From assembly GCA_031375385.1 (NCBI GenBank), contig JANMHS010000012.1, forward strand, positions 1,691 to 65,690: a stretch of 64,000 nt of DNA. Direction: 5' to 3'. The notes below the pieces were generated by a model, which was given only the letters and a program-made list of their open reading frames with translations, searched no databases and was not told the origin of the DNA. Each line of letters begins with the position of its first letter. Position 1 is the first letter of the stretch. Both the position numbers and the translations under genes were made by a program. Shown here piece after piece: positions 36 to 52,764 of the stretch. This DNA comes from Synechococcales cyanobacterium OTE_70_metabat_200 (lineage in GTDB: Bacteria; Cyanobacteriota; Cyanobacteriia; Cyanobacteriales; Chamaesiphonaceae).

Positions 36-69
36 AAAAATAAAAAGCCGTCCTAGAAGGACGGGGCTT
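36..69 (-). terminator. Intrinsic terminator of the STAND/WD40 gene
   Basis: Minus strand reads GCCCCGTCC-TTCTA-GGACGGC (plus 47..67; the stop codon 53..55 lies in the loop). It is followed by TTTTTATTTTT (plus A-run 36..46). Confidence 0.65.
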
Positions 70-3000
70 GAGTCCCATTTTCTCGGTCAATCGCCCCCAA
101 GACCCTCAGGGTAGCCAGCTGAGCATCGGCCAAGCCTTTGATATCATTGATTTTCATCCCCTCATAGGGACGCAGGGGTTTCCAGCTATGCAAACATGCA
201 GCGGTTTCCAGATCCCAGACCTTAATAATTTCATCGGAGCCACCGCTAAAAGCTACCAACTGTTCCGGCCCATGCTCGGATAACTGCACATTAACCACAT
301 CCAGGGCATAGACCAAACCCTGATGACCAGCCAGGGTCCGGATACATTCGCCAGTGGCCACATCCCAAACCTTCAGCACACTATCTAAACCACCACTGAC
401 GATCGCCAGATCATCCGGACTAAAGCAAGCCTTGAGAATTGGAGCTTGGTGGCCTACAAAGGTGCGCACGCATTCTCCCGTAGATACATTCCAGAGCTTC
501 AGGGTTTGGTCGTAGCTAGAGCTAACCAACCAATTACCATCGGAGCTAAAGTTCACGGACCAAACGCTATTGCCATGAGCCTGAATAGTTCTGCGGCATT
601 CACCGCTATGGCAATCCCAAAACTCGACTGTGCCATCGAAGCCGCTACTGGCCAACAGGTGACCATTGGGACTAAAAGCCACAGCTACCGCCGGACTGCT
701 CCGATCTGACAAGACTAGCAGACATTCCCCACTATCCACATCCCAGAGCTTCACGGTTCGATCGTAACTACTGCTAGCCAGCCACCGGCCATCGGGACTA
801 AAAGCGACCATCCAGACCCAACTTGTGTGGCCTTCGATGGTTTTCAGGCATTTTTCAGCTCGCCAATCCCACAGCTTAATCTTGTAATCGCTACTGCTAC
901 TGGCCAAGATTTGACCATTGGGGCTGAACTTAGTCGACCAGATGCGATTGCTATGCTCCCGGAGATGATAGACAATTTTGCCCGTATAGATATCCCAAAT
1001 ACGAATAGTAGTATCCTCATATCCACCTACCAAATATCGGCGATCCGGACTAACATCCAGCGACACCACCCCATTGGCATGACCGACAATCGTATTAATA
1101 CAGCGGCCCAAATCCAGGTCCCAAATTTTGGTGCTGTGGTCGTCACCACCGCTGCCAATCAGCTTGCCATCGGGATGAAAGGCTACGCTCCAGACCCGAT
1201 CGCGGTGACCCAACAGCGTCTTCAGGCATTTACCTGTTTTCACTTCCCAGAGCTTGATACTGCGATCGAAACTGCTGCTAGCTAGGTGCTGACCATCGGG
1301 ACTAAAGGCCAAGTCACTCACGGTCTGTTGGTGGCCGCGCAAAATATGTAGTGGCTGCGGATCCGACCTTTGGCCGAGCTGCGGACAGGGCCAAATTTTA
1401 ATGGTGCGATCATAACTACAGGTAGCAATCGATCGGCCATTGGGACTAAAGGCAACGGCTCTGACCCAGTTATCATGGGCCTGCCAACTAAAAAAGCATT
1501 CGCCCGTCGCCACATCCCAGAGCCGCACCATATTGTCTTCGCCACCACTGACCAGCGTCAGACCATCGGGACTGAAGCCGATCGACCAGACGCGACTATT
1601 ATGACCGGCCAGGGTAAATATTTCTGGATTACCATTGGGGTGAACTTGCCAGAGACGAATGGTATGGTCTTGGGAAGCAGTGGCTAGCACCCGACCATCG
1701 AGACTGAATGCTACCGTATTCACTGGTCGGCTGTGGCCGCTATAGAGGCACAGCAGCTCACCACTATGCACATCCCACAACCGGAGTAAATAGTCATCGC
1801 CCACGCTGGCTAGATATTGGCTATCTGGGCTAAAACTGATATCCCAGGCCCAATGCTGATGACCAGAACAACAGACCCTTTGTTCTACGGTTCCCACATC
1901 CCAAATTTGCACAACCCCTTTGTTATCACTGGTAGCCAAATTTTGGCCATCGGGGCTAAAGGCAATTCCTAAAATATCACCAAAGGTTTCCGTAAAAACA
2001 GTCTGGCTGAGGTGACTCCCCCGAAAATCCACATCATGGAGTAGGACATTACGCAGAAATGCCTGACGAATATTCAGGTGCGAAAAATCGCAGCTCGTCA
2101 AATCACTTTGGAGGTAGCACAACAAATTGATGATATTACCAACTCCATAGCCAGTATTAGCAGCATTTTGGTACCGAAAGGTGGAGAGCAGTTGGCGCAA
2201 ATATGCGACCATTTGAGACTGTCCGCCAAAGTGATTCAGCAACATTTCCACCAGGGGTTTCAGAATCAACTGGATCTGGGTTTCCCGCAGAAAGTCTTTA
2301 GTCTGAGCCTCGATCAAGGCATGGGATTTAAAAAAGATTAGTTCTCCCTGAATAATTTCCCTCACAATCTGCTGAATCAGCTGCTCGGTCATATATTCCA
2401 TAATCACGGGCTGTTGAGTCAAACCTCGCCGATCGGTTTCAATCAAGGAACGCTCGTGGAGAGTTTCCAGTGTTTCCAGCAGCTTGGCAGTACTGGTTGG
2501 CCCTAACAACTTGGCTTTCAGATTAGCTGGAGTGATACTTTCCCGATTGATCGCCAGCCAATACATAATCTGTTTCTGGAGAGTAGAAAGTCTCTCAAAC
2601 TGCTGATTTAATAGCTTCCAGAGATCACCAAAGACCACGCCTTGTTCTAGAAATGCCTGAATATCGCCGGAGAAAAGATTTTGAATCACAGTGGCGGCAA
2701 TTTTCACGGCCAAGGGATTACCGCTAAAGTAGTTCACCAGAGTCTGCTGTCGATCGGGAGCATCTTCTAGACCTTTGTCCTTGAGGATACATTGGGCTGA
2801 TTCGATCGACAGGCCCACTAGTTGCAGCGATCGCACAGGTAGATTGCTGCCTGCACGCAGGGTCAGACCATTAGGCTTTTCCCGCCCCGTCAAAATCAGA
2901 CAGCTTTGATGGCTTTCATCGGCAATGCGCTCCAGCATCTGACCATAAGCTTCATAGCCGGCTAGAAATTCACCGCTCCGGTCACCTGGCTCCAAAATGG

Positions 3001-3613
3001 ATTCTACGTTGTCTAATACCAATAAACAACGTCGCTCCCGCAGTTGCTGCATCAACAAAGCCAGGGAATTCTCTGGTCCTAGATCGCCACCGGTCAAAAC
3101 TGGTAGTATTTCGTCTAATAAAGCTTGGGGCGTGGGTGTTTGCCGCAGACTCCGCCAGATCATCACCTCAAACTGGCACCGCACCTCCTGGGAAATTCGC
3201 ACCGAGAGCGTGGTTTTGCCCATACCGCCAGAGCCAAATATTCCCACCAGCCGACAGCAATCGGTCAAAATCCACCGGCTCAGGGTTGTAAAGTCCTGTT
3301 CTCTGCCATAGAACTGCTGTACGTCGATCGCCTCACCCCAATCTACAATCTTTGCATCACAGCGAGACTGCATGATCGATCGCAGATTGCTTTTGGAAAT
3401 TTTTTCGCCAGTCAGCTCGGAAAAATATTTCCAGAGACTGGAAGCCACCTGCCTAATATAACCCGCATCATAGTCTAACTCTTCAGCTATTTTGTCGTAG
3501 GACTTTCGCTCCCAAACCCCCAACAACACCGTTTGCTGAACATCTTTGAGTTTAGGCTGTTTCTTGCTTTCTAGAAACTGTTCGATGGCACGGAGAGCTC
3601 TTTTTCCATCCAT
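53..3613 (-). CDS. STAND NTPase: N-terminal HTH-like domain, NACHT/NB-ARC P-loop, short pentapeptide-like segment, 14 WD40 repeats
   Basis: 1186 aa ORF. Walker A is GIFGSGGMGKTTLS and Walker B is LLVLDNVE. The N-terminus (DKIAEELDYDAGYIRQVASSL) resembles a sigma70-r4/LuxR-type HTH. Fourteen units of the form GH..V.S.AFSPDG..LAS.S.D.T.KLWDV can be counted, enough for two 7-bladed propellers. Confidence 0.9.
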   Translation of the reverse strand: MDGKRALRAIEQFLESKKQPKLKDVQQTVLLGVWERKSYDKIAEELDYDAGYIRQVASSLWKYFSELTGEKISKSNLRSIMQSRCDAKIVDWGEAIDVQQFYGREQDFTTLSRWILTDCCRLVGIFGSGGMGKTTLSVRISQEVRCQFEVMIWRSLRQTPTPQALLDEILPVLTGGDLGPENSLALLMQQLRERRCLLVLDNVESILEPGDRSGEFLAGYEAYGQMLERIADESHQSCLILTGREKPNGLTLRAGSNLPVRSLQLVGLSIESAQCILKDKGLEDAPDRQQTLVNYFSGNPLAVKIAATVIQNLFSGDIQAFLEQGVVFGDLWKLLNQQFERLSTLQKQIMYWLAINRESITPANLKAKLLGPTSTAKLLETLETLHERSLIETDRRGLTQQPVIMEYMTEQLIQQIVREIIQGELIFFKSHALIEAQTKDFLRETQIQLILKPLVEMLLNHFGGQSQMVAYLRQLLSTFRYQNAANTGYGVGNIINLLCYLQSDLTSCDFSHLNIRQAFLRNVLLHDVDFRGSHLSQTVFTETFGDILGIAFSPDGQNLATSDNKGVVQIWDVGTVEQRVCCSGHQHWAWDISFSPDSQYLASVGDDYLLRLWDVHSGELLCLYSGHSRPVNTVAFSLDGRVLATASQDHTIRLWQVHPNGNPEIFTLAGHNSRVWSIGFSPDGLTLVSGGEDNMVRLWDVATGECFFSWQAHDNWVRAVAFSPNGRSIATCSYDRTIKIWPCPQLGQRSDPQPLHILRGHQQTVSDLAFSPDGQHLASSSFDRSIKLWEVKTGKCLKTLLGHRDRVWSVAFHPDGKLIGSGGDDHSTKIWDLDLGRCINTIVGHANGVVSLDVSPDRRYLVGGYEDTTIRIWDIYTGKIVYHLREHSNRIWSTKFSPNGQILASSSSDYKIKLWDWRAEKCLKTIEGHTSWVWMVAFSPDGRWLASSSYDRTVKLWDVDSGECLLVLSDRSSPAVAVAFSPNGHLLASSGFDGTVEFWDCHSGECRRTIQAHGNSVWSVNFSSDGNWLVSSSYDQTLKLWNVSTGECVRTFVGHQAPILKACFSPDDLAIVSGGLDSVLKVWDVATGECIRTLAGHQGLVYALDVVNVQLSEHGPEQLVAFSGGSDEIIKVWDLETAACLHSWKPLRPYEGMKINDIKGLADAQLATLRVLGAIDRENGTQAPSF

Positions 3614-16446: not shown

Positions 16447-18990
16447 ATGTTGGATACCATTACTCGTCAGCTTGAAACAAGCTCCCAGATTACCAGAATC
16501 AAAAAGTTGCTGTTCTGTGTCTGCTATAGTCGCTGGAGTAAAGATGCCGAAGCCATGTCTAGCAAAGAACTTCAACAGTGTCTGCAAATGCTTTGCGATC
16601 TGCACCCAACCTTGGTGGAATTCAAGCATGCTCTCTATCAGATGGTCATTCGGCTGAACCATAGTAGCGAGTATTATACGGTGGCTAATGCTATCTGCGA
16701 TCAGGTGGAACCACTTTATGCTGAGGCAGCAGCAATCGGAGCAGAGCCGATGCTCGTTCCGGAGGAAATCACCACCGCTAAAACTTTGGAGATACCAGAA
16801 TCAACTACCGTTGGCGGCTCCGAACACAATTCCGATCCCAATGAAGATCGCCGAACTCGCTCTATTTATTTCAAAATTCAGGCCCCCAGCTTACAGCAGG
16901 CCCGAGTGGTCTGCGAAATCTCGTTGGAAGGACGGAAGCAGGCTCAAACCACCGTTAGTCTACCCCTCCAAATTATTCGCGACTATGCCAATTGGCAGAC
17001 CGCATATCGCCGCCTAAACAGCTTACCACAGTTAGCTCTAGTCGGAAAAGGCCAAGAGCCAGCCCCAGCACAGATCGATGAATGTCTGAAGGCTACGGAA
17101 GAACTGGTAGCGAAGCTCCATGACTGGTGCCAAGATTGTCAGCTAATTCAGGAACAAATTCAGCGCCTAGTGCCAGCGGCTGCTCCCTTGAAAGTGTTAG
17201 TCAGTAGCGATCTACCTTCATTGCTGAAGCTGCCCTGGAATCTTTGCCTGCAATCTTTACTGGCAGCCTATCCCCAAGCGGAGACGGTCATTCAATTAAC
17301 CCCACCCGCTCCAGCTCACCAAGTACAGGTAGCTGTGGTGCTGGCCAGTGGGGCGGGTATTGATGGCGAAAAATCCCAAGCTTATTTAGAGGCGCTACCG
17401 GAAACCCATTGCCAAATGCTCCTGGAATCTTCGCCCCACCAAGTGTTAGCGGCGATCGGCCAAACCGGCAGTGTAGTGGCTATTAGTAGTTATATTTCTG
17501 GCTATGGTAGTCGGGAGCGGGTGCTGGTGAATGCCAACGATAGTTTGCCGATCGCTGATCTCCAACAGGCCCTGCGCCGAGCGGTAGAACGCGGTCTCCA
17601 GTTACTGGTTTGGAATGGCGGTGATGGCCTAGAAATGGCCGCGCTGTTAGCGGAGACAGGGGTGCCCTATATTTTGGTGACCAGGGAACCACTGCCCGAT
17701 CGAGTAGTGAATGAGCTATTGAAACTGACCATGAAGCTCATGGCCGATGGCCAGTCTTTGCCTTTGGCCGTGAAAGCGGCGCGCGCCAGACTGCAAGAAA
17801 TAGAGCGGGTGTTTCCGGCAGCGAGCTGGTTGCCATTGCTCTGCCAAACGGGCAATCCGGAACGGGATTTGCAATGGTCCGATCTAGGAGCGCTGCCGCC
17901 GGTAGCCCCCTTGGAGCAGTCCGTGCCGCCAGTTGATGTGCTAGGTCCGGTAACAGATAGTCACCGTTTATCTCCAGAAACGGTGTCTGCGGATTTAAGG
18001 TCTGCTGGTGAGCTGGCCCCTTCACCACCGGAATTGCCTATGTCTCCACCGATTCAGCCGCCCAGCAGTATCGAAATTCCACCGAATATCGATTACGATA
18101 CGATGTCCTTAGATCGCTGTTTGACCGGATACTACAGTGAGGTAAATGCCCTAGCCATTAGCACCGATGGCAAGCTGATTTTCAGCGGCCATGGCGATCT
18201 GGGCTGCAAAGATAATAATGTCAAGGTCTGGCTGCTGGGCAGCGGCGAACTATTACAAGATCTGGTGGGCCATCGGGATGCGGTGCGAGCATTGGTGACC
18301 CAACCAAATCCCCATCAATTCTGGAGCGCCGGGTCCGATGGTCAGTTGCTCTCTTGGGATGTGACAAACAGCCGCGTGACACCTTTTGGCGCCCCGATCG
18401 CCGGTGGAGTCGGCGCGCTGCTCTCGATCGGCAATGGTCGCTATGGGGTCAGTGGCAGCGGCCAGGGCATCATTCAGCTCTGGGATATCGAAAAAAACCG
18501 ACTGCTCCGCTCTTGGTCTACGGATGATGCCATTAGTGCGCTGGCGGTGGATCGATCGGAACAGCTATTGGTCAGCGCCGGTGAGTCGGAGCTATTGCTC
18601 TGGGATCTAGCGCGGGGCCAGCGACTCCATCAGCTACAGGGCCACAGTGGGGCCGTGCGGGCCGTGGCCATTTCGGCGGCTGGAGATTTGGTGATCAGTG
18701 CGGGGGTCGATCGCACGATTCGGATCTGGGATGTGGCTACGGGAGATCTATTGCAGGTGCTGGTGGGCCACGATCGGCAAATCAATTGTTTGGCCCTGAC
18801 TCCCGATGGTCGATCGATTATCACTGGTAGCGATGATAAGACCGTGAAGGTCTGGCGCATGACCGATGGCAGTTTGGTAAATAATCTCTTCGGCCACAAC
18901 AGTCCGATCCTAGCTTTGGCCATTGACCAAGCTGGCAAATTCCTGGTTACCGGTGGCTATGGCGAAATCCGTATCTGGGAAATCGAATAA
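16447..18990 (+). CDS. WD40-repeat protein with a large uncharacterised N-terminal region
   Basis: 847 aa. Seven WD40 units occupy the last roughly 300 aa (e.g. LQGHSGAVRAVAISAAGDLVISAGVDRTIRIWDV). A Pro-rich linker precedes them. I could not assign the first roughly 480 aa to a family and saw no P-loop. Confidence 0.85.
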   Translation: MLDTITRQLETSSQITRIKKLLFCVCYSRWSKDAEAMSSKELQQCLQMLCDLHPTLVEFKHALYQMVIRLNHSSEYYTVANAICDQVEPLYAEAAAIGAEPMLVPEEITTAKTLEIPESTTVGGSEHNSDPNEDRRTRSIYFKIQAPSLQQARVVCEISLEGRKQAQTTVSLPLQIIRDYANWQTAYRRLNSLPQLALVGKGQEPAPAQIDECLKATEELVAKLHDWCQDCQLIQEQIQRLVPAAAPLKVLVSSDLPSLLKLPWNLCLQSLLAAYPQAETVIQLTPPAPAHQVQVAVVLASGAGIDGEKSQAYLEALPETHCQMLLESSPHQVLAAIGQTGSVVAISSYISGYGSRERVLVNANDSLPIADLQQALRRAVERGLQLLVWNGGDGLEMAALLAETGVPYILVTREPLPDRVVNELLKLTMKLMADGQSLPLAVKAARARLQEIERVFPAASWLPLLCQTGNPERDLQWSDLGALPPVAPLEQSVPPVDVLGPVTDSHRLSPETVSADLRSAGELAPSPPELPMSPPIQPPSSIEIPPNIDYDTMSLDRCLTGYYSEVNALAISTDGKLIFSGHGDLGCKDNNVKVWLLGSGELLQDLVGHRDAVRALVTQPNPHQFWSAGSDGQLLSWDVTNSRVTPFGAPIAGGVGALLSIGNGRYGVSGSGQGIIQLWDIEKNRLLRSWSTDDAISALAVDRSEQLLVSAGESELLLWDLARGQRLHQLQGHSGAVRAVAISAAGDLVISAGVDRTIRIWDVATGDLLQVLVGHDRQINCLALTPDGRSIITGSDDKTVKVWRMTDGSLVNNLFGHNSPILALAIDQAGKFLVTGGYGEIRIWEIE

Positions 18991-21080: not shown

Positions 21081-21839
21081 TCAACCAATCGCCACCTCAT
21101 TCACCTGATCTGGAGTCAAATGGGGATAAATTACCTGACCATCCCGAAACCAGACAATCCGCCGGGTTTGGCGAGCCACATCTGGCTCGTGGGTCACCAT
21201 CACGATCGTGATGCCACTCTCATTCAGTTGCGTAAAGATATTCATTACTTCCTGGGTGGTCTTAGAATCCAGCGCTCCCGTCGGCTCGTCGGCTAACAAC
21301 AGCACTGGCTCCCCGACGATCGCGCGGGCGATCGCCACTCGTTGTTGTTGGCCGCCCGAAAGCTGATTGGGCCGGTTGTTGCGGCGATTCGTTAATCCCA
21401 CCCGCTCCAGCGCCGCCGCCGCCCGCTCCGTCCGCTCCTTGGCCGGAATGCCGGCATAGATCAAGGGCAGCATCACATTCTCCATCGCCGTAGATTGGGG
21501 CAAGAGATGGAATTGCTGAAAGACAAAGCCCAACTTGCGATTACGAATATGAGCCAAATTGTCATCGGGCTGGGTCGAAACATCCAGTTTATCGAGGTAG
21601 TAGCGGCCACTGGTGGGGCGATCAAGACAACCAATAATGTTCATGGCTGAAGATTTGCCAGAGCCAGATGGACCCATGATCGAGCAATATTCTCCTTCGG
21701 CGATGATCAGATTCACGTCATCCAAAGCGTTGACGAGGGTATCGCCCATGCCATAGCGTTTGCAAACCGCTTCCATCCGAATAATCACTGGCTCCGTCGG
21801 ACTATCTTGGATGGGGGCGGTGGTTGAGGTAGTGAGCAT
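21081..21839 (-). CDS. ABC transporter ATP-binding protein, DevA/MacB-ATPase type
   Basis: 252 aa. Walker A is GPSGSGKSS, the signature motif is LSGGQQQRVAIARA and Walker B is LLLADEPTGALD. Confidence 0.9.
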   Translation of the reverse strand: MLTTSTTAPIQDSPTEPVIIRMEAVCKRYGMGDTLVNALDDVNLIIAEGEYCSIMGPSGSGKSSAMNIIGCLDRPTSGRYYLDKLDVSTQPDDNLAHIRNRKLGFVFQQFHLLPQSTAMENVMLPLIYAGIPAKERTERAAAALERVGLTNRRNNRPNQLSGGQQQRVAIARAIVGEPVLLLADEPTGALDSKTTQEVMNIFTQLNESGITIVMVTHEPDVARQTRRIVWFRDGQVIYPHLTPDQVNEVAIG

Positions 21840-22169
21840 GGCGATCGGGGTTGGGGATAAAAGATTTGCGGGAAGAATTCCTCAATACGGAACAAAAAGC
21901 TAGAAGAATTGGATGGAACAGGTTGGATGGAAGTTACTAGGAACTATCCCACTTTGTGCTATGAACCAGGTTAACCTAATTTCTCAAGCCTTGAGCCCAG
22001 ATCTGAGCTAGCCTCCAGAGCAACATTCCTGGCTCTTCTCTAGATGCACGGCTTTTTGTGCAGATCGATGAAATAACCTTGGCTGATACTGGTACTTTTG
22101 GGAGTTACAATGGGGAAGTGTCACTTTGGTAGTATTGAGTCAGTTGTGTCTGCTTAGAATCTTTAGGTA

Positions 22170-22754
22170 GTGAATATGTCGATCTCCCTTTTGCCCGTTC
22201 CTACCATCAGTCCTGAAGAGTATTTGGCTTTAGAGATAGAGTCAGAGACTCGTAATGAATATCGAAATGGAGAAATTGTCCCGATGACCGGTGGTACCCC
22301 TGCTCATAACAAGCTGGCAAGTGCTTTGAATGCTTTGCTGTGGTTTGCTCTCCGGGATCAGCCTTTGAATTTGTTTATGACTGACCAACGGTTATGGATT
22401 CCGACAGCTAATATCCATACCTACCCAGATATCATGGTGACCAGAGATCCGCTGGTGTTTCAGGCTGGACGGCGTGATACGGTAATGAACCCGGTGTTTG
22501 TGGCAGAGGTGTTATCGGATTCAACGAAGGCTTATGACCGCACTGATAAGTTTGCGGCTTATCGGACGATCGCCGGATTTGCAGAGTATTTATTGATCGA
22601 TCAAGCTAAGGTTGGTGTGGAACACTATGTAAAGCAGTCTGAAAACCAATGGCTGTTTGCTAGTTACGATCGCCTAGATGTTCAGTTGGTTTTGACGTCT
22701 CTGGAGACACAAGTTTCCTTGGCCGATCTGTACAGTACTATAGATTTTACATAG
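22170..22754 (+). CDS. Uma2-family (DUF820) endonuclease
   Basis: 194 aa: SPEEYLALE...NEYRNGEIVPMTGGTPAHN...PDIMV...VAEVLSDST...DRTDKFAAYRTIAGFAEYLLIDQ. This is the typical restriction-endonuclease-like Uma2 pattern. Confidence 0.85.
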   Translation: MNMSISLLPVPTISPEEYLALEIESETRNEYRNGEIVPMTGGTPAHNKLASALNALLWFALRDQPLNLFMTDQRLWIPTANIHTYPDIMVTRDPLVFQAGRRDTVMNPVFVAEVLSDSTKAYDRTDKFAAYRTIAGFAEYLLIDQAKVGVEHYVKQSENQWLFASYDRLDVQLVLTSLETQVSLADLYSTIDFT

Positions 22755-22784
22755 AGTCGAACTATTTGATAAGGCAGTAATAAC

Positions 22785-23252
22785 ATGGCAAAGCTAGGAT
22801 TAAAGCAAATCAAAAAACTGGATCAAGGGAAAAATATCTCCCATAGCAAAAAAGGGGATGCTCCCCAATGTGGTTTATGCGGCAAAACCAAAAACTTAAC
22901 CAAGACAGAATGTTGTAACAACTGGATTTGCGATGATGAAGACCAATATCGGGTGTTTTCCTTCGCTCGGAATAGCTGCCATCGCAACCATCGACGACTG
23001 ACCCTCTGCGGTGGGCATTACAGCGAAGAGCACAGCGATCAGTGGCAAGATTGTCAAGAGTGCCGAGGTGCATTTGAAACCGAGATGTATGTTTATTTCG
23101 GGACAAATGATTACAACTTTGAAAAACTACCGAACCCGCCCAAATATGCGCCTACCCGGTGTATAGAATGCAAACGGGTAATTAAATTAGGCACTGATGG
23201 TTATACCTACGACTCAAATGGCTATACCTGCGAGAAATGCAGCCCCAATTAA
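22785..23252 (+). CDS. Cys-rich (multi CxxC) hypothetical protein
   Basis: 155 aa ORF with CGLCGK, CCNNWIC, CHRNH..LCGGH, CQECRG, CIECK and CEKC motifs. No family was recognised. Confidence 0.55.
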   Translation: MAKLGLKQIKKLDQGKNISHSKKGDAPQCGLCGKTKNLTKTECCNNWICDDEDQYRVFSFARNSCHRNHRRLTLCGGHYSEEHSDQWQDCQECRGAFETEMYVYFGTNDYNFEKLPNPPKYAPTRCIECKRVIKLGTDGYTYDSNGYTCEKCSPN

Positions 23253-23332
23253 TTGATCCTATGCACTCTCAATTGATCGACCAAAGTTCTAACATGAGCA
23301 AGGTTTTGTTACATCAGGCTGGGCAAGAATGG

Positions 23333-24019
23333 CTAAACACTTCCACCCGGGCGATTGAGCGGTTTTCCATTTCGGTTGAAACAGACCGTAGCCGTTCCAG
23401 GAAATGATTCAATCAGTTCTCTTTTGACATCAGGGTGATTTTCAAACACAGTCATCCACACCGAGAAAAATCCATAGCCCTTTGCTACCTCCAGCACAAG
23501 TTCTCTGGCCTCTTTCGTCTGCCCCGATTTTTCAAGATTTTCTCTGCATCTTTCGGCGGCTTTCCAGATCTCTTCCCGATCCCGCCAGCGTTTGTCTCTG
23601 CGGGCTGGTTGCGTCCCGCTGGCCGCTGGATGTCTTTGTAAACCTACCAAATCCAATAATGTCTGTGCTTTCGATTGCTGAGTGGTATTCAGCCCATTGG
23701 CTAGGATGACAAATCCGCCCCTAGTGTAACAGATTGAGAGAAACGTATTATCCCGATCGGGCCATAAAGAATCATTAATTCCAATATCTTGAGCACCTTT
23801 AACTGAATTGCAGTTAGTGCAGCCCAACAGGAAATTAGTCCATGTTGTTTTTAGCTCTGGATGCAAACTTTTGGGCAACACATGCTCGACAGCTAAACCA
23901 ATGGGGATATGGCGTTCGCAATAGCTACAGTATTTTCCCAGCTATGCGGTCAAATCTTCAATGGCATCCTCATATTGTGGATAGCTGCGCGGTGCTAATC
24001 CCCTGTCTAATGGCCTCAT
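23333..24019 (-). pseudogene. PtuB/TIGR02646-like HNH endonuclease gene interrupted by an in-frame TAG
   Basis: The ATG at 24019..24017 overlaps the upstream TGA (ATGA). The reading frame gives MRPLDRGLAPRSYPQYEDAIEDLTA, then TAG (23944..23942), then LGKYCSYCERHIPIGLAVEHVLPKSLHPELKTTWTNFLLGCTNCNSVKG... The longest intact ORF (23333..23881, GTG start) lacks the CxxC and the catalytic His. Confidence 0.75.
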
Positions 24020-25797
24020 TCAGCTTCTTGCTCCTTGGCTTTGGCCATTGCTTCCAATTTCAGGAAAGCTGTTAAGCCTGGATCATCGGAGAATGGTTCT
24101 AGTGCTTGCCGATAATTGGCTTCGGCAGTTAACAATTCATCAGAATCAGCAGCCTCTTGGTTTTGGAGGAGGGCAAAATATTGCTCTGTAGCCTGGGCTA
24201 GCTGTTGAGCTTTCAGGCTTTGTTGAGGCATATCTACCAATTGAATGTCTTCGGCAATGTCTTCGATCGACTGATTTGCATATTGCAGCGGTTGGGAATC
24301 TTCAACATCAAGGCTTCTCAGCTCCCCTGGACTAATAGATTGAATGATGAAGGGAGAATGGGATGTACACACAAATTGAATAGCGGGAAACATGGTTTTA
24401 AGGTCATTTACAACTCGGCGCTGCCATTTGGGATGGAGGTGAACATCTAATTCATCAATTAGCACCAAGCCTGGTGTTTTCTGTAGGACTTGGGGTAAGG
24501 TTTGATAATCCAGCTCTGATTCCTCAGCCAAAAAAGCAAAATTCTGAGTGACCATTTTAATCGCAATATCTGCAATCAACGCCACCATCATTTTTTGTCC
24601 AGCGCTCAGGCTACTAAAGGGCAGAGCCTGACCATCAATCAACAGCATGATCTCTAGGCGATCGGGGTCAAACCAAAGATTACTGGCTTCGGGAATGCAG
24701 CGCAGAATCGCAAACTTCACAACCTTATAGGCCATACGCATTTCACCATGACGGTTCAGGGCGGCGATCGCCTCTCTATGAAACCAATTTTGCAGATCAC
24801 CAATCCGAATTCGTTCGGCCAAGCAATCATAGAAGGCATCCCAGCGACGAGCAGGTTCATTGGCTAACTTGGTTTTTCTGTCCCGACTATTTGATGGTAA
24901 CCAAGCTCTACCGGCTCCATAGTAAGCAATAATTGGAAACCAAGATTTTTCTCCTATTCGATCTTGCTCAAAGAGTCGAGCAACTATTTGCATTACTTGT
25001 TTACTGTCGGAATTGGATGTTCTGGAACCTTTCAAAGAAATTTTTCGCTGCCAACTGACAGTCTCAGTCCCAATAACACCGGTGGCGCTAACTTCAACTG
25101 GCTTGCAATCGGCGAGTCGGAAAGAATCGATGGTTTCGATCGTCTCAGCCCGGATCTCATGGGGCAGAATATTGCGCCCACTGCTGGCCAGAGTTGTATC
25201 AGGATAATCAATCAACCAAATTCCAGCAGCAACAGCCAAAGCATCTAATACTGTGGTTTTGCCTGTTCCATTATTACCCACCAATAACGTAAATTGCGGG
25301 CAGAAGTCGAAGGTGCATTCTGGGAATTTTTTGAAGTTTCTGATTTCTAGCCGATCTATTCTGAATTCATTAATAGTTGTGATCGCCTGCGCACGTTTTC
25401 CACTCAGTAAGCGATATAGTTGATCATAGTCACGAGGAAATAGAATTGCTTGGCGATCTCGTAAAATCCTTGGCAAATATAATATATCTCTCCGTGCAAA
25501 TGCAATCGGAATGATTTTATCGCTTCTGGGGTTTTCATAGAGTTTTCGATTTATCATTTCTTCTCTTAAGAACCCAAGATCCCGAGACGCTTTTTGGCGG
25601 ACAACCACTAAGACAAAATCCGCACTGTCAATTTGTTCCGAGATCCATACTTCCCAGTTTGTACCTAGAGGAATCGATTGCTCCTCAATGCAATCGATTC
25701 CATCTGCTGTCAATCGATCAACCAAAGCTTCAACACGATCAATGTGTTCAGCAGAATCATGGCTATAGCTAATGAAAACAGTTGGAGAACGGGACAT
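24016..25797 (-). CDS. TIR-domain / ABC-type (AAA_15/AAA_21, PtuA-like) ATPase fusion protein
   Basis: The N-terminal roughly 140 aa is TIR-like (VFISYSHDSAEHIDRVEALVDRLTADGIDC...WEVWISEQIDSADFVLVVV). ATPase motifs are FRIDRLEIRNFKKF, Walker A GNNGTGKTT, the signature-like LSAGQKMMVALIADIA, Walker B LVLIDELDVHLHP and the H-loop CTSHSPFII. The start at 25797 is preferred because AAGAGG lies 5 nt upstream; the ORF track start is 25827. Confidence 0.8.
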   Translation of the reverse strand: MSRSPTVFISYSHDSAEHIDRVEALVDRLTADGIDCIEEQSIPLGTNWEVWISEQIDSADFVLVVVRQKASRDLGFLREEMINRKLYENPRSDKIIPIAFARRDILYLPRILRDRQAILFPRDYDQLYRLLSGKRAQAITTINEFRIDRLEIRNFKKFPECTFDFCPQFTLLVGNNGTGKTTVLDALAVAAGIWLIDYPDTTLASSGRNILPHEIRAETIETIDSFRLADCKPVEVSATGVIGTETVSWQRKISLKGSRTSNSDSKQVMQIVARLFEQDRIGEKSWFPIIAYYGAGRAWLPSNSRDRKTKLANEPARRWDAFYDCLAERIRIGDLQNWFHREAIAALNRHGEMRMAYKVVKFAILRCIPEASNLWFDPDRLEIMLLIDGQALPFSSLSAGQKMMVALIADIAIKMVTQNFAFLAEESELDYQTLPQVLQKTPGLVLIDELDVHLHPKWQRRVVNDLKTMFPAIQFVCTSHSPFIIQSISPGELRSLDVEDSQPLQYANQSIEDIAEDIQLVDMPQQSLKAQQLAQATEQYFALLQNQEAADSDELLTAEANYRQALEPFSDDPGLTAFLKLEAMAKAKEQEAE

Positions 25798-25865
25798 GGA
25801 TGCCTCTTGGCGTTTATCGGAAAACAATGGTAGTCAAGAGAATGATACAACAGCAATTACAAATT

Positions 25866-25919
25866 GCCCTCATCCCCCAACCCCCTCTCCCAGAATTGGG
25901 AGAAGGCTGGGGTGAGGGC
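25866..25919. repeat. REP-like nested palindromic element, second copy
   Basis: GCCCTCATCCCCCAACCCCCTCTCCCAGAATTGGGAGAAGGCTGGGGTGAGGGC has the same outer arms and inner CTCTCCCA..TGGGAGA core as 12988..13060. It lies between the permease stop and the TIR gene start. Confidence 0.75.
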
Positions 25920-25952
25920 CAGCCAATGTCGCACCCCTCTAGATCGAGAACC

Positions 25953-27197
25953 CTAAACACTGCGCAAAGCCACGATCGGATCCAGCTGCGCTGCTCGCTT
26001 CGCCGGAACCACTCCAAAAAATAGACCGATCGCCCCCGATACGGTCACCGCCAGCACGATCGAGGCCGGTGCTACCACCGCCGGCAAAGGGGTCACTGCG
26101 CCTACGACCAACACCGCCCCCACACCAATCAACGTACCAATCACACCCCCGGCGGCGGACAAAATCACCGACTCAATAATGAACTGCCCTTGAATATCCC
26201 CTTGAGTGGCCCCGATCGCCTTGCGCAGACCGATTTCCTGCGTCCGTTCGGTGACCGATACCAACATAATATTCATCACCCCAATGCCCCCAACCAAGAG
26301 CGAGATACCAGCGATCGCACCTAATAACAAAGTCAATGCACCCGTAATCGTCCCCACAATTTGCAAGGCATCTTTCTGATTCCGCACCGTGAAATCATCA
26401 TCATTCACAATCTTATGCCGTCTGCGCAACAGATTAGTAATCTGAAATTCCGCCGCCCCAATACTATCAGCATCCTTGGCCGCAACCGAAATAAAGGAAA
26501 CTTCTTGACCAAAAGGCGAACTGCGCCCAATCAACCGCCGACTCATGGTCGTCAACGGTACATAGGCGACATCATCCTGATTGCTGCCAAAGGAAGAACC
26601 CTTAGCACCCATGATCCCAATCACCTCAAAAGAAGTATTCTTAATCCGAATCTTGCTGCCCAATGGTTCTCGGCCCTCAAATAGCTTCTCCGCCAAGTCC
26701 GGCCCTAGTACCACCACCTGACTGCCATTCTTAACATCCTTATCATTAAAAAATCGACCTTTGGTCACCTCAAAGCTGCGCACGGTCAGAAAACTGGGGG
26801 TGGTACCGGCCACCTGAGAAGTGCTGTTCTTGTTTTCGTAATTAATTGGCTGGCTAGATTGCAGCTGGGGCGAGACGGCGGCCACACTAGGCACCTGCCG
26901 AGCGATCGCCTGGGCATCGGCACTTACCAATGTCCGAGGTAGCCCCAGCCGGTTTTGTTGGCTATTCGGGCCGCCGGGCAGAATGAATAGAGTATTAGGA
27001 CCCAGAGATTTGAATTGTTCTTCGGCCAGCTTTTGGGTGCCCTGACCAATACCCACCATCGCAATCACCGAAGCATTGCCAATGATAATCCCCAGCATGG
27101 TGAGACCACTGCGCAGCTTATTTGCCAAAAGAGTGGAGGTGGCCATCTTTAGGCTTTCTGCCAGGTCTATGCCGCTTCTTCTTTTGGACTTGGCCAT
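25953..27197 (-). CDS. ABC transporter permease, FtsX/MacB-type (DevC-like)
   Basis: It has an N-terminal TM, a large periplasmic domain and a C-terminal FtsX 3-TM bundle (..RTQEIGLRKAIGATQGDIQGQFIIESV..). The ATG at 27197 lies 1 nt after the upstream gene's stop. The ORF track start 27245 would overlap that gene by 47 nt. Confidence 0.85.
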   Translation of the reverse strand: MAKSKRRSGIDLAESLKMATSTLLANKLRSGLTMLGIIIGNASVIAMVGIGQGTQKLAEEQFKSLGPNTLFILPGGPNSQQNRLGLPRTLVSADAQAIARQVPSVAAVSPQLQSSQPINYENKNSTSQVAGTTPSFLTVRSFEVTKGRFFNDKDVKNGSQVVVLGPDLAEKLFEGREPLGSKIRIKNTSFEVIGIMGAKGSSFGSNQDDVAYVPLTTMSRRLIGRSSPFGQEVSFISVAAKDADSIGAAEFQITNLLRRRHKIVNDDDFTVRNQKDALQIVGTITGALTLLLGAIAGISLLVGGIGVMNIMLVSVTERTQEIGLRKAIGATQGDIQGQFIIESVILSAAGGVIGTLIGVGAVLVVGAVTPLPAVVAPASIVLAVTVSGAIGLFFGVVPAKRAAQLDPIVALRSV

Positions 27198-27198
27198 C

Positions 27199-28833
27199 CT
27201 ATTTCTCCTTATCTTTATTAAGTTTGAAACCTTTTGGTGTATCAATAAACACCCGATCGCCGGACTTGATGCCGTTGGTGATTTGGGTTTTGTCCTTCAC
27301 CGAAAAGCCCAGAGACACTTCCCGAAACTCTGGCTGGCTATCCTTATTGGGCACCAGCACCCCATCTTTGCCCTTATCGCGGACGATCGCTACCGTAGGT
27401 ACCATCAAGGCCGTGGGCACTTGTTCGCCCACAAAAGCAACGTTAACATTCATTCCCGATTTTAGCTTGCCGTTGCCATCGTCATTGATGATCAGTCGCA
27501 CATCGAAAGCAGTCACATTCTGCTCCACCACTGCTTCGGGGGCGACAATCTTGACGGAGCCTTTGAACTTTTGGTCGGGATAGGCATCAGCAGAAATTTC
27601 GACATTTTGGCCCACGCGCACCTTGCCGATATCCACTTCGGGCACTTTGGCTTTAACTTCCAGATCCTTGGCGATCGCCACAATCGAAGTAGAAGTGGCC
27701 TGCCCTTCCTTAGAAGCAGTAGTAGTGGGTGTCACAAAAGCACCCACGCTGGCATAGCGCTGGGTAATAATCCCATCGAAAGGAGCCACGATCGCCGTAT
27801 CCCGGATTTGGACTTGGATGGCTCGGAGTCTGGCTTGGGCCGAGTCCAAAGCAGCGGCCAATTGGGCAATTTCCTCGGGTCTGGCACCGTTCTTGACCTG
27901 TTGCAGGGCCACCTGGGCCTGACGCACATCGGCTGCGGCTTTTTGGGTATCTTCTACCCGGCTGCCGGATCTTTGCTGCTGCAAATTCTGCTCCACTTCG
28001 GCCACCACTGCGCGGCGCTGGGCAATTTCCTGGGTGGAGTTATTGCGCACTTGCTGGACACGCTGCCTGGCTTCTAGATAGTTGGCACTAGTGGTTTGAT
28101 AGTCGGCGGTGGCTTCATCCAAACGGTCTTGGGCAACCGCTCCTTCCCTAAGCAGCTTGGTGTAGCGCTCCAAGCGAGTTTTGGAGAGTCGTAACCTAGC
28201 AGTGGCCGCAGCCAGTTGGGCTTCGGCTTGCTTGATTTGCTCCGGCCCGATCGACAAGGACAAGTTCAGATTAGCTTGGGCCGAGTCCAGTTTGGCTTGG
28301 ACTTGCTTAATTTCTTCGACTCGATTGCCATTGCGCGAGCGATCCAAGGTAGCCTGGGCCGCATCCAGCTTGGCTTGGGACTGGTCGATGTCCTCTGGCC
28401 GACTGCCGTTTTTGAGTTTGGCCAGGTTGGCCTGGGCTTGGCGGACGTTGGCCTGGGCCTCTAGGAGTTGGGCTTGCAGCTCGGCATTTTCCATCTGGGC
28501 AATTTTTTGTCCTTGCTGCACCACATCGCCCTGTTCCACAAAGACCTGAGCCACCCGCCCGGAGTTTTTGGGGCTGAGGTTGACCGTCTGGCCGGGCAGC
28601 ACCGACCCGTTGGCCGAAATTTTCAAGGTGACATCTTCGGCCTTGGCCACCACGGTCAGCTTGTTGAGATCGACTTTGCCAGCAGATTGGAGGCCACTAA
28701 AAGCATAGGCACCTAGACCCACGAGGCTGAGAGCACCGATTGCCAAAGCTGCAAACAGCGGCAGGCGATTTTTGGATTTCACAATGGGCAATGAGTCTTC
28801 CATACACTGGGGCGCTAACAAGCGCGTAGCCAC
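27199..28833 (-). CDS. HlyD-family periplasmic adaptor (DevB-like)
   Basis: 544 aa with an N-terminal TM, a lipoyl/barrel segment and a very long Q/A-rich coiled-coil hairpin (AQANLAKLKNGSRPEDIDQSQAKLDAAQATL... repeated). The C-terminal beta-barrel contains VVAPFDGIITQR. Confidence 0.85.
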   Translation of the reverse strand: MATRLLAPQCMEDSLPIVKSKNRLPLFAALAIGALSLVGLGAYAFSGLQSAGKVDLNKLTVVAKAEDVTLKISANGSVLPGQTVNLSPKNSGRVAQVFVEQGDVVQQGQKIAQMENAELQAQLLEAQANVRQAQANLAKLKNGSRPEDIDQSQAKLDAAQATLDRSRNGNRVEEIKQVQAKLDSAQANLNLSLSIGPEQIKQAEAQLAAATARLRLSKTRLERYTKLLREGAVAQDRLDEATADYQTTSANYLEARQRVQQVRNNSTQEIAQRRAVVAEVEQNLQQQRSGSRVEDTQKAAADVRQAQVALQQVKNGARPEEIAQLAAALDSAQARLRAIQVQIRDTAIVAPFDGIITQRYASVGAFVTPTTTASKEGQATSTSIVAIAKDLEVKAKVPEVDIGKVRVGQNVEISADAYPDQKFKGSVKIVAPEAVVEQNVTAFDVRLIINDDGNGKLKSGMNVNVAFVGEQVPTALMVPTVAIVRDKGKDGVLVPNKDSQPEFREVSLGFSVKDKTQITNGIKSGDRVFIDTPKGFKLNKDKEK

Positions 28834-52759: not shown

Positions 52760-52764
52760 CGATC

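What the first reader, a model, noticed from the sequence alone, without database searches (positions are those of the whole stretch)
24016..25797. TIR domain fused to a Septu PtuA-like ABC ATPase: candidate uncharacterised defence architecture
The sequence has an N-terminal roughly 140 aa TIR-like fold signature (VFISYSHDS...WEVWISEQIDSADFVLVVV). It is joined to an SMC/ABC-type ATPase with Walker A GNNGTGKTT, signature LSAGQ, Walker B LIDELDVHLHP and an H-loop SHSP. This is followed by a translationally coupled HNH gene. From established knowledge, an AAA_15/21 ATPase plus a TIGR02646-type HNH is the Septu (PtuA-PtuB) module, also used by type I-A retrons. TIR domains are NAD-consuming or signal-generating effectors in Thoeris, CBASS, Pycsar-like and Avs systems. 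By inference, a PtuA that carries its own TIR would have two effectors, or a TIR replacing the (here disrupted) nuclease. I do not recognise this as a canonical Septu subtype. It sits in an obvious insertion.
Basis: partly seen in the sequence, partly recalled or inferred. Interest (0 to 1): 0.78.

Follow-up and report, generated by a model that had tools for sequence, protein, structure and literature searches.

The report
Septu defence ATPase with added SEFIR domain
This is a known two-gene anti-phage module (Septu: PtuA ATPase plus PtuB nuclease) whose ATPase has gained a rare extra TIR-like (SEFIR) domain, but in this genome that domain looks degenerate and the nuclease gene carries a stop codon, so the copy is probably impaired.

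Summary
Window 24016-25797 (-) encodes a 593-aa protein with a TIR-superfamily domain (res 1-133), a ~12-aa linker and a full-length PtuA ABC ATPase (res 146-593, all motifs intact). Its stop overlaps (ATGA) the start of a PtuB HNH gene (23333-24019) that has one in-frame TAG at codon 26, where relatives have CAG.

- **Domain type:** the N-terminal domain is specifically a bacterial SEFIR domain, the family reported to deplete NAD+ in the bSEFIR system.
- **Rarity:** the fusion occurs in 14 protein clusters in a 5.8-billion-protein collection and in 1-2 of 185,579 species genomes. It is absent from the plasmid and phage collections, and I found no paper describing it.
- **Location:** in all 8 loci examined the pair sits directly downstream of the permease gene of a devBCA-type exporter operon in Synechococcales-like cyanobacteria. 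It is not in a defence island.
- **Two branches:** one keeps the SEFIR hallmark motif GxGxxWE (dN/dS ~0.2). The window's branch has lost about 40% of hallmark residues and evolves under relaxed constraint (dN/dS ~0.5), while the ATPase stays at 0.06.

Verdict: a new architectural variant of Septu, plausibly dual-effector in its ancestral form. Here the SEFIR domain is probably vestigial and PtuB is freshly broken. Interest is moderate.

The parts
24016..25797 (-). SEFIR-PtuA fusion gene (593 aa, ATG at 25797, TGA at 24016-24018)
   Evidence: ORF. Pfam TIR_2, SEFIR, AAA_15, AAA_21 and SMC_N. PADLOC PtuA E 6e-111 and bSEFIR E 9e-26. An identical protein, P0001, exists in the public collection.
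25399..25797 (-). N-terminal SEFIR (TIR-superfamily) domain, residues 1-133; degenerate form
   Evidence: Profile against PDB: BcSEFIR 5Y8E E 3e-24 and Act1 SEFIR E 1e-13. AF2 pLDDT 81.6 with a beta-alpha TIR topology. Foldseek hits to TIR and SEFIR structures. Only 35 of 62 family-conserved columns are kept, and the G-loop and W are lost.
25555..25572 (-). FLREEM (res 76-81): the site where the family has GxGxxWEG. W is replaced, and R78, E79 and E80 occupy the place of the conserved Glu
   Evidence: Three alignments put R78 in the Glu column; one MAFFT run puts E79 there. pLDDT dips to 61 in res 71-80.
25363..25398 (-). Linker between SEFIR and the ATPase (res 134-145)
   Evidence: pLDDT below 50 in both models. 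Its length varies among homologues, 12 to about 60 aa.
24016..25362 (-). PtuA ABC-ATPase core plus C-terminal extension (res 146-593)
   Evidence: Aligns to E. coli Septu PtuA 8EE4 residues 2-372, E 1.8e-30. Walker A 25252-25278, signature 24595-24609, Walker B 24445-24468, H-loop 24352-24366. dN/dS 0.05-0.14.
23333..24019 (-). ptuB (HNH nuclease) pseudogene or nonsense allele, 228 codons, start overlapping the ptuA stop (ATGA 24016-24019)
   Evidence: Translation. PADLOC PtuB PDLC00315 E 1.5e-58. TIGR02646 E 2e-8, below its cut-off. Orthologues are intact at 228 aa in L002, L003, L085, L086 and L005.
23942..23944 (-). In-frame TAG, codon 26 of ptuB; CAG (Gln) in relatives
   Evidence: DNA alignment with L002 and L003. 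The same TAG appears in an independent Logan assembly, L001. The next in-frame start listed (GTG, 23881) lies after C31/C34 and after His46, the first His of the HNH motif.
25953..28833 (-). Upstream flank: devB-like membrane-fusion gene (27199-28833) and devC-like MacB/FtsX permease gene (25953-27197)
   Evidence: Pfam HlyD_D23/HlyD_3 and MacB_PCD+FtsX. The same genes lie upstream of the fusion in L002, L003, L088 and L005.
21081..21839 (-). Downstream flank: devA-like ABC transporter ATPase gene
   Evidence: Pfam ABC_tran E 7e-33. It follows PtuB directly in L002 and L088.
22170..23252 (+). Extra cargo inside the insertion: Uma2-family endonuclease (22170-22754) and a Cys-rich 155-aa protein (22785-23252). 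Not a conserved part of the system
   Evidence: Uma2 Pfam E 2e-32 and PADLOC PDC-S03. The Cys-rich gene is 86% identical in L086 but absent from L002 and L088.

Best explanation
The locus is a type I Septu module (PtuA ABC ATPase plus PtuB HNH nuclease) in which PtuA has gained an N-terminal SEFIR domain on a flexible linker. SEFIR is a branch of the TIR superfamily.

**Shown**
- The domain identities and the translational coupling of the two genes.
- The rarity of the fusion and its confinement to one cyanobacterial lineage.
- Its fixed position between devC and devA.
- The single nonsense codon in ptuB.
- The loss of SEFIR hallmark residues and relaxed constraint in the window's sub-branch, while the ATPase stays strongly constrained.

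**Inferred mechanism for the ancestral form (sub-branch A: P0008-P0014)**
PtuA oligomerises as in E. coli Septu, a hexamer that holds PtuB through PtuA's C-terminal extension and regulates it through ATP. The SEFIR domains hang off the N-terminal ATPase heads. On activation by infection they are brought together and hydrolyse NAD+. This matches how the same SEFIR type is used at the N-terminus of NB-ARC/NACHT STAND NTPases and in bSEFIR. The system would then have two effectors: DNA nicking and NAD+ depletion.

**Inferred state in this window (sub-branch B)**
The SEFIR domain is a vestigial, probably NADase-dead fold, and PtuB was the working effector. A recent C-to-T change (CAG to TAG, codon 26) removes the first CxxC pair and the HNH histidine from any downstream product. 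This particular copy is therefore most likely a recently inactivated Septu, retaining only an intact ATPase.
For: **Identity**
- PADLOC PtuA E 6e-111 over its full length and PtuB E 1.5e-58.
- The closest solved structure is 8EE4 Septu PtuA, E 1.8e-30, with window residue 146 aligned to chain residue 2.
- The SEFIR profile hits BcSEFIR at E 3e-24. The fold is supported.

**Known mechanisms used for the inference**
- SEFIR depletes NAD+ in bSEFIR (10.1101/2024.02.11.579819).
- Septu is a PtuA6:PtuB2 complex regulated by ATP.
- The PtuA N-terminus is a known site of lineage-specific additions: the Ec78 N-terminal extension binds the reverse transcriptase (PMC12819146).

**Typical SEFIR partners**
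- The closest SEFIR relatives are N-terminal modules of NB-ARC, NACHT and nSTAND NTPases.

**Degeneracy in the window's branch**
- The GKGxGVxWEG motif is at least 90% conserved in 149 family representatives.
- Sub-branch A keeps 49-57 of 62 conserved columns, sub-branch B keeps 27-38, and the window keeps 35.
- Amino-acid identity to the window protein is 55-64% in SEFIR against 89-93% in the ATPase.
- dN/dS is 0.40-0.61 for SEFIR in B, 0.18-0.23 for SEFIR in A, 0.05-0.14 for the ATPase and 0.15-0.30 for PtuB.

**Nonsense codon**
-.
Against: - No biochemical data exist for any SEFIR-PtuA protein.
- The catalytic residue of bacterial SEFIR NADases is not established in the papers I could read. 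The family Glu sits at W+1, whereas SARM1 E642 sits at W+4.
- The window protein has E79 and E80 right at this site, and one alignment places E79 in the family Glu column. Residual activity therefore cannot be excluded.
- A dN/dS of 0.5 is below 1, so the domain is still under some constraint and is not free-running junk.
- The TAG could be a strain polymorphism. Both assemblies that show it may derive from the same reads.
- The full-length AF2 model is poor (pLDDT 58.8), so nothing is known about SEFIR-ATPase contacts.
Confidence: 0.6

Rival explanations
1. The SEFIR domain was never an enzyme in these fusions. It is a protein-interaction or regulatory module, as eukaryotic SEFIR domains are. 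It would tune PtuA oligomerisation, sense a phage factor, or act as a decoy for phage anti-TIR/SEFIR inhibitors. PtuB is then the only effector. Fast evolution of the domain reflects an arms race rather than decay.
For: - Eukaryotic SEFIR domains and BcSEFIR were described as interaction domains, and bSEFIR defence needs a SEFIR-SEFIR contact residue.
- The domain is kept as an intact, confidently folding unit in all 14 clusters with dN/dS below 1.
- The N-terminal extension of Ec78 PtuA is a partner-binding element.
- Closely related hosts carry very different SEFIR alleles on similar ATPases: L002 and L088 have devA dS 0.11.
Against: - Sub-branch A retains the full GxGxxWE motif, shared at 90% or more with family members on STAND NTPases and under dN/dS about 0.2. 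This is what an active enzyme would show.
- The bacterial SEFIR family is reported as NAD+-depleting.
- No site-level test for positive selection was run.
Confidence: 0.22
2. The window's copy is a working system. The rewired SEFIR domain uses E79 or E80 and supplies the toxic activity. PtuB is dispensable, or the TAG is read through or is an error. In this reading the TIR-like domain really has taken over from the nuclease.
For: - E79 can be aligned with the family Glu.
- The SEFIR-PtuA ORF is intact in all 8 loci, while up to 3 carry PtuB lesions: the window's TAG; L087 with ATG changed to ATA and its 3' end replaced; L088 with a 1-bp loss.
- The ATPase dN/dS is 0.06.
Against: - The other sub-branch B proteins have V, G, A, G or S at the Glu column and no conserved acid nearby, so the branch as a whole has no conserved active site.
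- The W and the Gly-loop are gone.
- PtuB is intact and under purifying selection (dN/dS 0.15-0.3) in three sub-branch B loci.
- The L088 lesion lies in an A-run and may be a sequencing error.
- No suppressor tRNA is found in the window.
Confidence: 0.12
3. The module has been domesticated for a role linked to the devBCA-type exporter, such as regulation or quality control of the pump, rather than phage defence. This would explain its conserved co-oriented position inside the operon.
For: - The position and orientation are the same in all 8 loci, across hosts whose devC dS is 1.5-1.9.
- No sigma-70-like promoter was found between devC and ptuA on the coding strand.
Against: - Both proteins are full-length matches to Septu models.
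- The insert has foreign GC (0.45 against 0.54).
- In L003 devA no longer follows the insert.
- The dS of ptuA (about 0.5) is much lower than that of flanking devC (about 1.6) between the same genomes. This suggests the cassette moves between lineages by recombination rather than co-evolving with the pump.
- Lesions in ptuB are tolerated.
Confidence: 0.04

Closest known systems
Septu type I (PtuA-PtuB; Doron 2018; E. coli structures 8EE4/8EE7/8EEA, Li et al. 2024)
   Same: PtuA is a full-length ABC ATPase with Walker A, signature, Walker B and H-loop. The PtuB HNH gene lies immediately downstream with overlapping stop and start. The C-terminal extension, which binds PtuB in the solved systems, is conserved.
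   Different: PtuA carries an extra 145-residue SEFIR domain plus linker at its N-terminus, which no PADLOC PtuA model or solved PtuA contains. Here PtuB has a premature stop. The locus lies inside a transporter operon, not in a defence island.
bSEFIR single-gene defence system (Millman et al. 2022; PADLOC PDLC03957)
   Same: It has an N-terminal bacterial SEFIR domain (PADLOC bSEFIR E 9e-26 over res 1-138; BcSEFIR 5Y8E E 3e-24). In bSEFIR this domain type mediates NAD+ depletion.
   Different: Only positions 35-187 of the 412-position bSEFIR model are matched, and the C-terminal part is replaced by PtuA. In the window's branch the hallmark GxGxxWE motif and the DQY motif are degenerate.
Retron type I-A effector pair (Ec78/Eco7 PtuA-PtuB)
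   Same: It uses a PtuA/PtuB pair, and its PtuA also has a lineage-specific N-terminal extension that confers a new partnership (PMC12819146).
   Different: The 4-kb insert contains no reverse transcriptase gene; ncRNA was not searched for. NCBIfam retron PtuA scores 194.5 against a cut-off of 500, and retron PtuB 30.7 against 150. The extension here is a folded SEFIR domain rather than a helix.
SEFIR/TIR-NB-ARC or NACHT STAND (NLR-like, Avs-like) proteins
   Same: They have the same SEFIR subtype at the N-terminus of an oligomerising NTPase. This is the logic I infer for the ancestral fusion.
   Different: The NTPase here is an ABC/SMC-type PtuA, not a STAND. None of the 149 closest SEFIR family representatives has a PtuA-like ATPase.

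Membership tests
Septu (PtuA-PtuB) | PtuA: ABC-type ATPase matching PtuA models over the full length, with intact nucleotide-binding motifs | tested here: met
   PADLOC PDLC00278 E 6.4e-111, res 145-589 to model 1-435 of 436. 8EE4 PtuA E 1.8e-30. Motif coordinates.
Septu (PtuA-PtuB) | PtuB HNH nuclease gene adjacent to and co-oriented with ptuA | tested here: met
   ATGA overlap at 24016-24019. PADLOC PtuB PDLC00315 E 1.5e-58.
Septu (PtuA-PtuB) | PtuB open reading frame intact, with the CxxC...H...N...CxxC HNH core encoded in one product | tested here: not met
   TAG at codon 26 (23942-23944). The next start listed (GTG 23881) lies after C31, C34 and H46. The ORF is intact in 5 of 8 orthologous loci.
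Septu (PtuA-PtuB) | PtuA hexamer binding PtuB; ATP-regulated nuclease; anti-phage activity | not testable with these tools
   Known only for E. coli Septu, cited second-hand. The full-length AF2 model is too poor to use.
Retron type I-A | Reverse transcriptase and ncRNA next to PtuA/PtuB; PtuA and PtuB reach the NCBIfam equivalog cut-offs | tested here: not met
   The insert holds only ptuA, ptuB, Uma2 and a Cys-rich gene. NF041760 scores 194.5 against 500, and NF041761 scores 30.7 against 150. No Rfam search for ncRNA was run.
TIR superfamily (STIR clan) fold | Flavodoxin-like beta-alpha fold with structural matches to TIR/SEFIR domains | tested here: met
   AF2 pLDDT 81.6 with alternating strands and helices. 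Foldseek probability 1.0, TMq 0.6-0.75 to SPARTA TIR-APAZ, Act1 SEFIR, AbTir and SARM1. Pfam TIR_2 scores 52.4 bits against a cut-off of 28.
TIR NADases (SARM1/AbTir type) | Catalytic Glu in the WxxxE motif at the start of helix C | tested here: not met
The E642 column is hydrophobic in the family and is M81 in the window.
Bacterial SEFIR domain family | Sequence profile closer to SEFIR than to classical TIR | tested here: met
   The family profile hits BcSEFIR at E 3e-24 and Act1 SEFIR at E 1e-13, against 5e-4 or worse for TIRs. PADLOC bSEFIR E 9e-26. Caveat: for the window sequence alone, Pfam TIR_2 (9e-14) beats SEFIR (1.6e-6).
Bacterial SEFIR domain family | Hallmark motifs conserved at 90% or more: DQY, C-T-x-x-Y-x-x-R after strand C, and the Gly loop plus W-E-G (GKGxGVxWEG) | tested here: not met
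   The window keeps 35 of 62 conserved columns. DQY is replaced by EEQ, CT by VR, and Y, R, the G-loop, W and G are all lost. The Glu column holds R78 or E79 depending on the alignment. Sub-branch A relatives keep 49-57 of 62.
bSEFIR defence system (single gene) | SEFIR domain followed by the bSEFIR-specific C-terminal region | tested here: not met
   Only model positions 35-187 of 412 are matched. The remainder of the protein is PtuA.
SEFIR/TIR NADase activity | NAD+ hydrolysis on activation | not testable with these tools
   This needs an enzyme assay or metabolomics.

The most novel reading that the evidence does not exclude
SEFIR-PtuA is a working dual-effector Septu in which oligomerisation of an ABC ATPase, rather than a STAND NTPase, switches on a SEFIR NADase. 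This would be the first link between Septu and NAD+ depletion. In the window's branch the rewired SEFIR domain (E79/E80, no W or Gly-loop) would still be active or would have taken a new sensing role. That would make PtuB dispensable and explain why ptuB carries lesions in up to 3 of 8 loci while SEFIR-ptuA is always intact and its ATPase is under strong purifying selection.
Probability: 0.13. Interest if true: 0.7.

Novelty: new variant of a known kind. Interest (0 to 1): 0.45.

Why it matters
Septu is one of the most common bacterial defence systems, yet PtuA is known only as a regulator and scaffold for the PtuB nuclease. A PtuA that carries its own NAD+-depleting domain would show two things:

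- ABC-ATPase scaffolds can license TIR-superfamily effectors, as STAND/NLR scaffolds do.
- Septu can be wired for abortive infection by NAD+ depletion.

The lineage also offers a natural series for separating the contributions of the two effectors:

| State | SEFIR | PtuB | Loci |
|---|---|---|---|
| 1 | intact | intact | L003, L005 |
| 2 | degenerate | intact | L002, L085, L086 |
| 3 | degenerate | broken | window |

For this particular window the practical message is more modest. The copy is probably impaired, and any annotation pipeline would simply call it 'Septu', or miss it because of the ptuB stop.

Tried and rejected
- **Literature.** Seven full-text searches found no description of a TIR- or SEFIR-PtuA fusion. 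They also gave no statement of which residue is catalytic in bacterial SEFIR. The final Millman 2022 paper and Li 2024 are not held.
- **Mapping the catalytic Glu.** HMMER alignments to classical TIR structures stop before helix C. hhalign to SARM1 places the family Glu at W+1 rather than at E642. Alignments disagree on whether R78 or E79 of the window sits in the Glu column. I therefore report the Glu as ambiguous and rest the 'degenerate' claim on the whole set of 62 conserved columns.
- **Full-length AF2 model.** The alignment was too shallow and pLDDT was 58.8. I did not use it for a fold search.
- **Origin of the fusion.** I checked whether it arose by read-through from an upstream SEFIR gene. 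The nearest unfused PtuAs sit in unrelated contexts with no SEFIR gene upstream, so I rejected this.
- **Plasmid or phage carriage.** No record covers the SEFIR part.
- **Insertion boundaries.** I found no flanking direct or inverted repeats marking a mobile-element boundary, only short matches likely to be chance.
- **Amber suppression.** The window holds only a tRNA-His.
- **Organism name.** The window's own genome did not turn up among the GTDB species representatives scanned.
- **Excess of PtuB lesions.** I considered counting them as evidence that PtuB is dispensable. I downgraded this because the L088 lesion is a 1-bp loss in an A-run and L087 is a short metagenome contig.
Full report
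**1. What is in the sequence**

The minus strand of window 24016-25797 encodes a 593-aa protein. The mechanical ORF list gives a TTG start at 25827. All homologues begin at MSRSPTVFISY, which fixes the ATG at 25797.

Pfam finds TIR_2 (E 9e-14, res 7-127), SEFIR (1.6e-6) and the ABC/SMC-type ATPase families AAA_21, AAA_15, AAA_23 and SMC_N. PADLOC's PtuA model PDLC00278 matches res 145-589 end to end (model 1-435 of 436, E 6.4e-111). The bSEFIR model matches res 1-138 (E 8.7e-26).

The PtuA stop overlaps the start of the next gene as ATGA (24016-24019). That gene translates as a 228-codon PtuB HNH protein interrupted by one in-frame TAG at codon 26. The residual 182-aa ORF still scores E 1.5e-58 against PADLOC PtuB.

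**2. The N-terminal domain is a SEFIR domain**

- A profile of the domain family hits the bacterial SEFIR crystal structures 5Y8E and 5Y8F at E 3e-24 and human Act1 SEFIR at E 1.4e-13. Classical TIR domains (BtTir, PdTIR, AbTir, SARM1) reach only 5e-4 to 0.5.
- An AlphaFold2 model of res 1-144 has pLDDT 81.6 and the alternating strand-helix order of a TIR fold.
- Foldseek returns SPARTA TIR-APAZ, Act1 SEFIR, SARM1 and AbTir at TMq 0.6-0.75.

Bacterial SEFIR domains are reported to defend by NAD+ depletion (Millman 2022 as cited in 10.1101/2024.02.11.579819 and 10.64898/2026.09.04.749371).

The family is very large, with 14,432 representatives at 50% identity and E below 1e-3. Its closest members are N-terminal modules of NB-ARC, NACHT and nSTAND NTPases carrying WD40 or TPR arrays. 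None of the top 149 has a PtuA-like ATPase.

**3. The ATPase is a true Septu PtuA, and the SEFIR domain is a clean add-on**

The closest solved protein is E. coli Septu PtuA (8EE4, E 1.8e-30). Window residue 146 aligns to chain residue 2.

The nearest PtuAs without SEFIR are 64-69% identical over the ATPase and start exactly at MRIDRLEI. They sit in unrelated genomic contexts with no SEFIR gene upstream, so the fusion is a domain accretion and not a read-through of neighbouring genes.

The retron-type PtuA and PtuB equivalog models are far below their cut-offs. The insert encodes no reverse transcriptase.

**4. How rare it is and where it sits**

- In a search of about 5.8 billion protein clusters, only 14 clusters (P0001-P0014, 62-100% identical) combine the two parts.
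- In one genome per species for 185,579 species, only one MAG (Synechococcales GFS_11981, L005) has the full fusion. A second (L029) has it cut off at a contig end.
- No plasmid (72,556 records) or phage (50,697 records) carries it.
- Seven literature searches found no description.

The gene pair sits directly downstream of the MacB/FtsX permease gene of a devBCA-type exporter operon in the window, L001, L002, L003, L005, L085 and L088. L086 and L087 also have an ORF fragment just upstream, but no family hit is on record for it. The exporter's ABC ATPase gene follows directly in L002 and L088.

The insert has GC 0.451 against 0.54-0.55 for its flanks. It is an insertion, but an old, lineage-fixed one inside a housekeeping operon rather than part of a defence island.

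In the window it carries two extra opposite-strand genes, a Uma2 endonuclease and a Cys-rich 155-aa protein. These are absent from L002 and L088 and are not part of the system.

**5. Two sub-branches with different SEFIR states**

Alignments split the 14 proteins into branch A (P0008-P0014) and branch B (P0001-P0007, including the window).

The family hallmark GKGxGVxWEG is at least 90% conserved in 149 representatives. Branch A keeps it. Branch B has deleted the Gly loop, replaced the W, and holds R/V/G/A/G/E/S in the Glu column.

Conservation and selection by branch:

| Measure | Branch A | Branch B | Window |
|---|---|---|---|
| Family columns (≥80% conserved) kept, of 62 | 49-57 | 27-38 | 35 |
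| SEFIR dN/dS within the branch | 0.18-0.23 | 0.40-0.61 | – |

For comparison, dN/dS is 0.05-0.14 for the ATPase, 0.15-0.30 for PtuB and 0.03-0.08 for devC.

The window has also lost DQY, the C-T-x-x-Y-x-x-R stretch after strand C, and G122. Amino-acid identity between the window protein and its branch B relatives is 55-64% in SEFIR against 89-93% in the ATPase.

Whether the window keeps the Glu is ambiguous. Three alignments put R78 in that column and one puts E79 there. I could not establish from the literature which residue is catalytic in bacterial SEFIRs.

The safest statement is that the branch B SEFIR domain is a still-folding, partly constrained, but heavily degenerate version with no conserved acidic residue at the presumed active site.

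**6. State of PtuB**

The window's TAG corresponds to CAG in L002 and L003, and it appears identically in an independent Logan assembly. The next in-frame start codon lies after C31, C34 and His46, so any downstream product lacks the first zinc-binding pair and the HNH histidine.

PtuB is intact at 228 aa in L002, L003, L085, L086 and L005. L087 has ATG changed to ATA plus a replaced 3' end. L088 has a 1-bp loss in an A-run that may be a sequencing error. The lesions do not track the SEFIR branch.

**7. Mechanism**

Established for E. coli Septu, second-hand: a PtuA hexamer holds two PtuB through PtuA's C-terminal extensions, and ATP regulates DNA nicking.

My inference for the ancestral fusion is that the SEFIR domains, tethered to the N-terminal ATPase heads by a 12-60-aa disordered linker, are clustered on activation and deplete NAD+. 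This would give a two-effector Septu.

For the window I infer a vestigial SEFIR domain and a recently broken PtuB, so the copy is probably inactive. Rivals are:
- a non-catalytic regulatory or sensor SEFIR domain (0.22);
- a still-active rewired SEFIR domain that makes PtuB dispensable (0.12);
- domestication for the exporter (0.04).

**8. Unexplained observation**

The dS of ptuA between the window and L002 (about 0.5) is well below that of flanking devC (about 1.6). L002 and L088 have nearly identical devA (dS 0.11) yet carry different SEFIR branches. This points to exchange of the cassette, or of its 5' part, between lineages by recombination at the same locus. I did not map breakpoints.

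**9. Verdict**

This is a real, rare and apparently undescribed architectural variant of a well-known system. It is interesting mainly for its ancestral, motif-intact relatives. The copy in this window is the least promising member for function. Novelty: new variant of a known kind. Interest: 0.45.

Noticed in passing
window 51338-53739 (+): A second AAA_15/AAA_21 ABC ATPase (473 aa) gives only local matches to PtuA, AriA and HEC-01A models. It is followed 5 bp later by a 324-aa protein with no Pfam or PADLOC hit. The pair lies in the lowest-GC part of the window (0.41-0.42) and may be another two-gene defence pair with an unknown effector.
   Followed up: partly
window 21840-25952 versus L002, L088 and L003: The synonymous divergence of ptuA (dS about 0.5) is much lower than that of the adjacent devC (about 1.6) between the same genomes. 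Near-identical hosts (L002 and L088, devA dS 0.11) carry different SEFIR sub-branches. This suggests recombinational exchange of the cassette or its 5' end at a fixed locus.
   Followed up: partly
window 22785-23252 (+): A Cys-rich 155-aa protein with several CxxC pairs has no hit in Pfam, NCBIfam or PADLOC. It lies convergent to ptuB and is 86% identical in L086, but is absent from L002 and L088.
   Followed up: partly
window 22170-22754 (+): A Uma2-family putative endonuclease (Pfam E 2e-32) also matches the PADLOC candidate system PDC-S03. It is lineage-specific cargo in the same insertion.
   Followed up: no
L087 2190-2906 and L088 9914-10640: Further ptuB lesions occur in relatives. L087 has its start ATG changed to ATA and its 3' end replaced by unrelated sequence. 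L088 has a 1-bp loss in an A-run that truncates the last ~27 aa. SEFIR-ptuA is intact in all 8 loci. The lesions could be real decay or metagenome errors.
   Followed up: partly
L005 and L007 (MAG Synechococcales GFS_11981): The same MAG holds both a SEFIR-PtuA/PtuB pair and a second PtuA without SEFIR. The second PtuA appears truncated (108-aa ORF) and lies next to a different HNH type, beginning MRNIPKKTEP.
   Followed up: no
window 53-3613 (-) and 16447-18990 (+): Two large WD40-repeat proteins (1186 and 847 aa) have long N-terminal regions that were not characterised here. The closest SEFIR relatives elsewhere are fused to NB-ARC plus WD40, so NLR-like proteins may be abundant in this genome.
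   Followed up: no
window 24764-24771: One HIP1 palindrome (GCGATCGC) lies inside ptuA; the window holds 20 in total. This is consistent with long residence of the cassette in a cyanobacterial genome despite its low GC.
   Followed up: no
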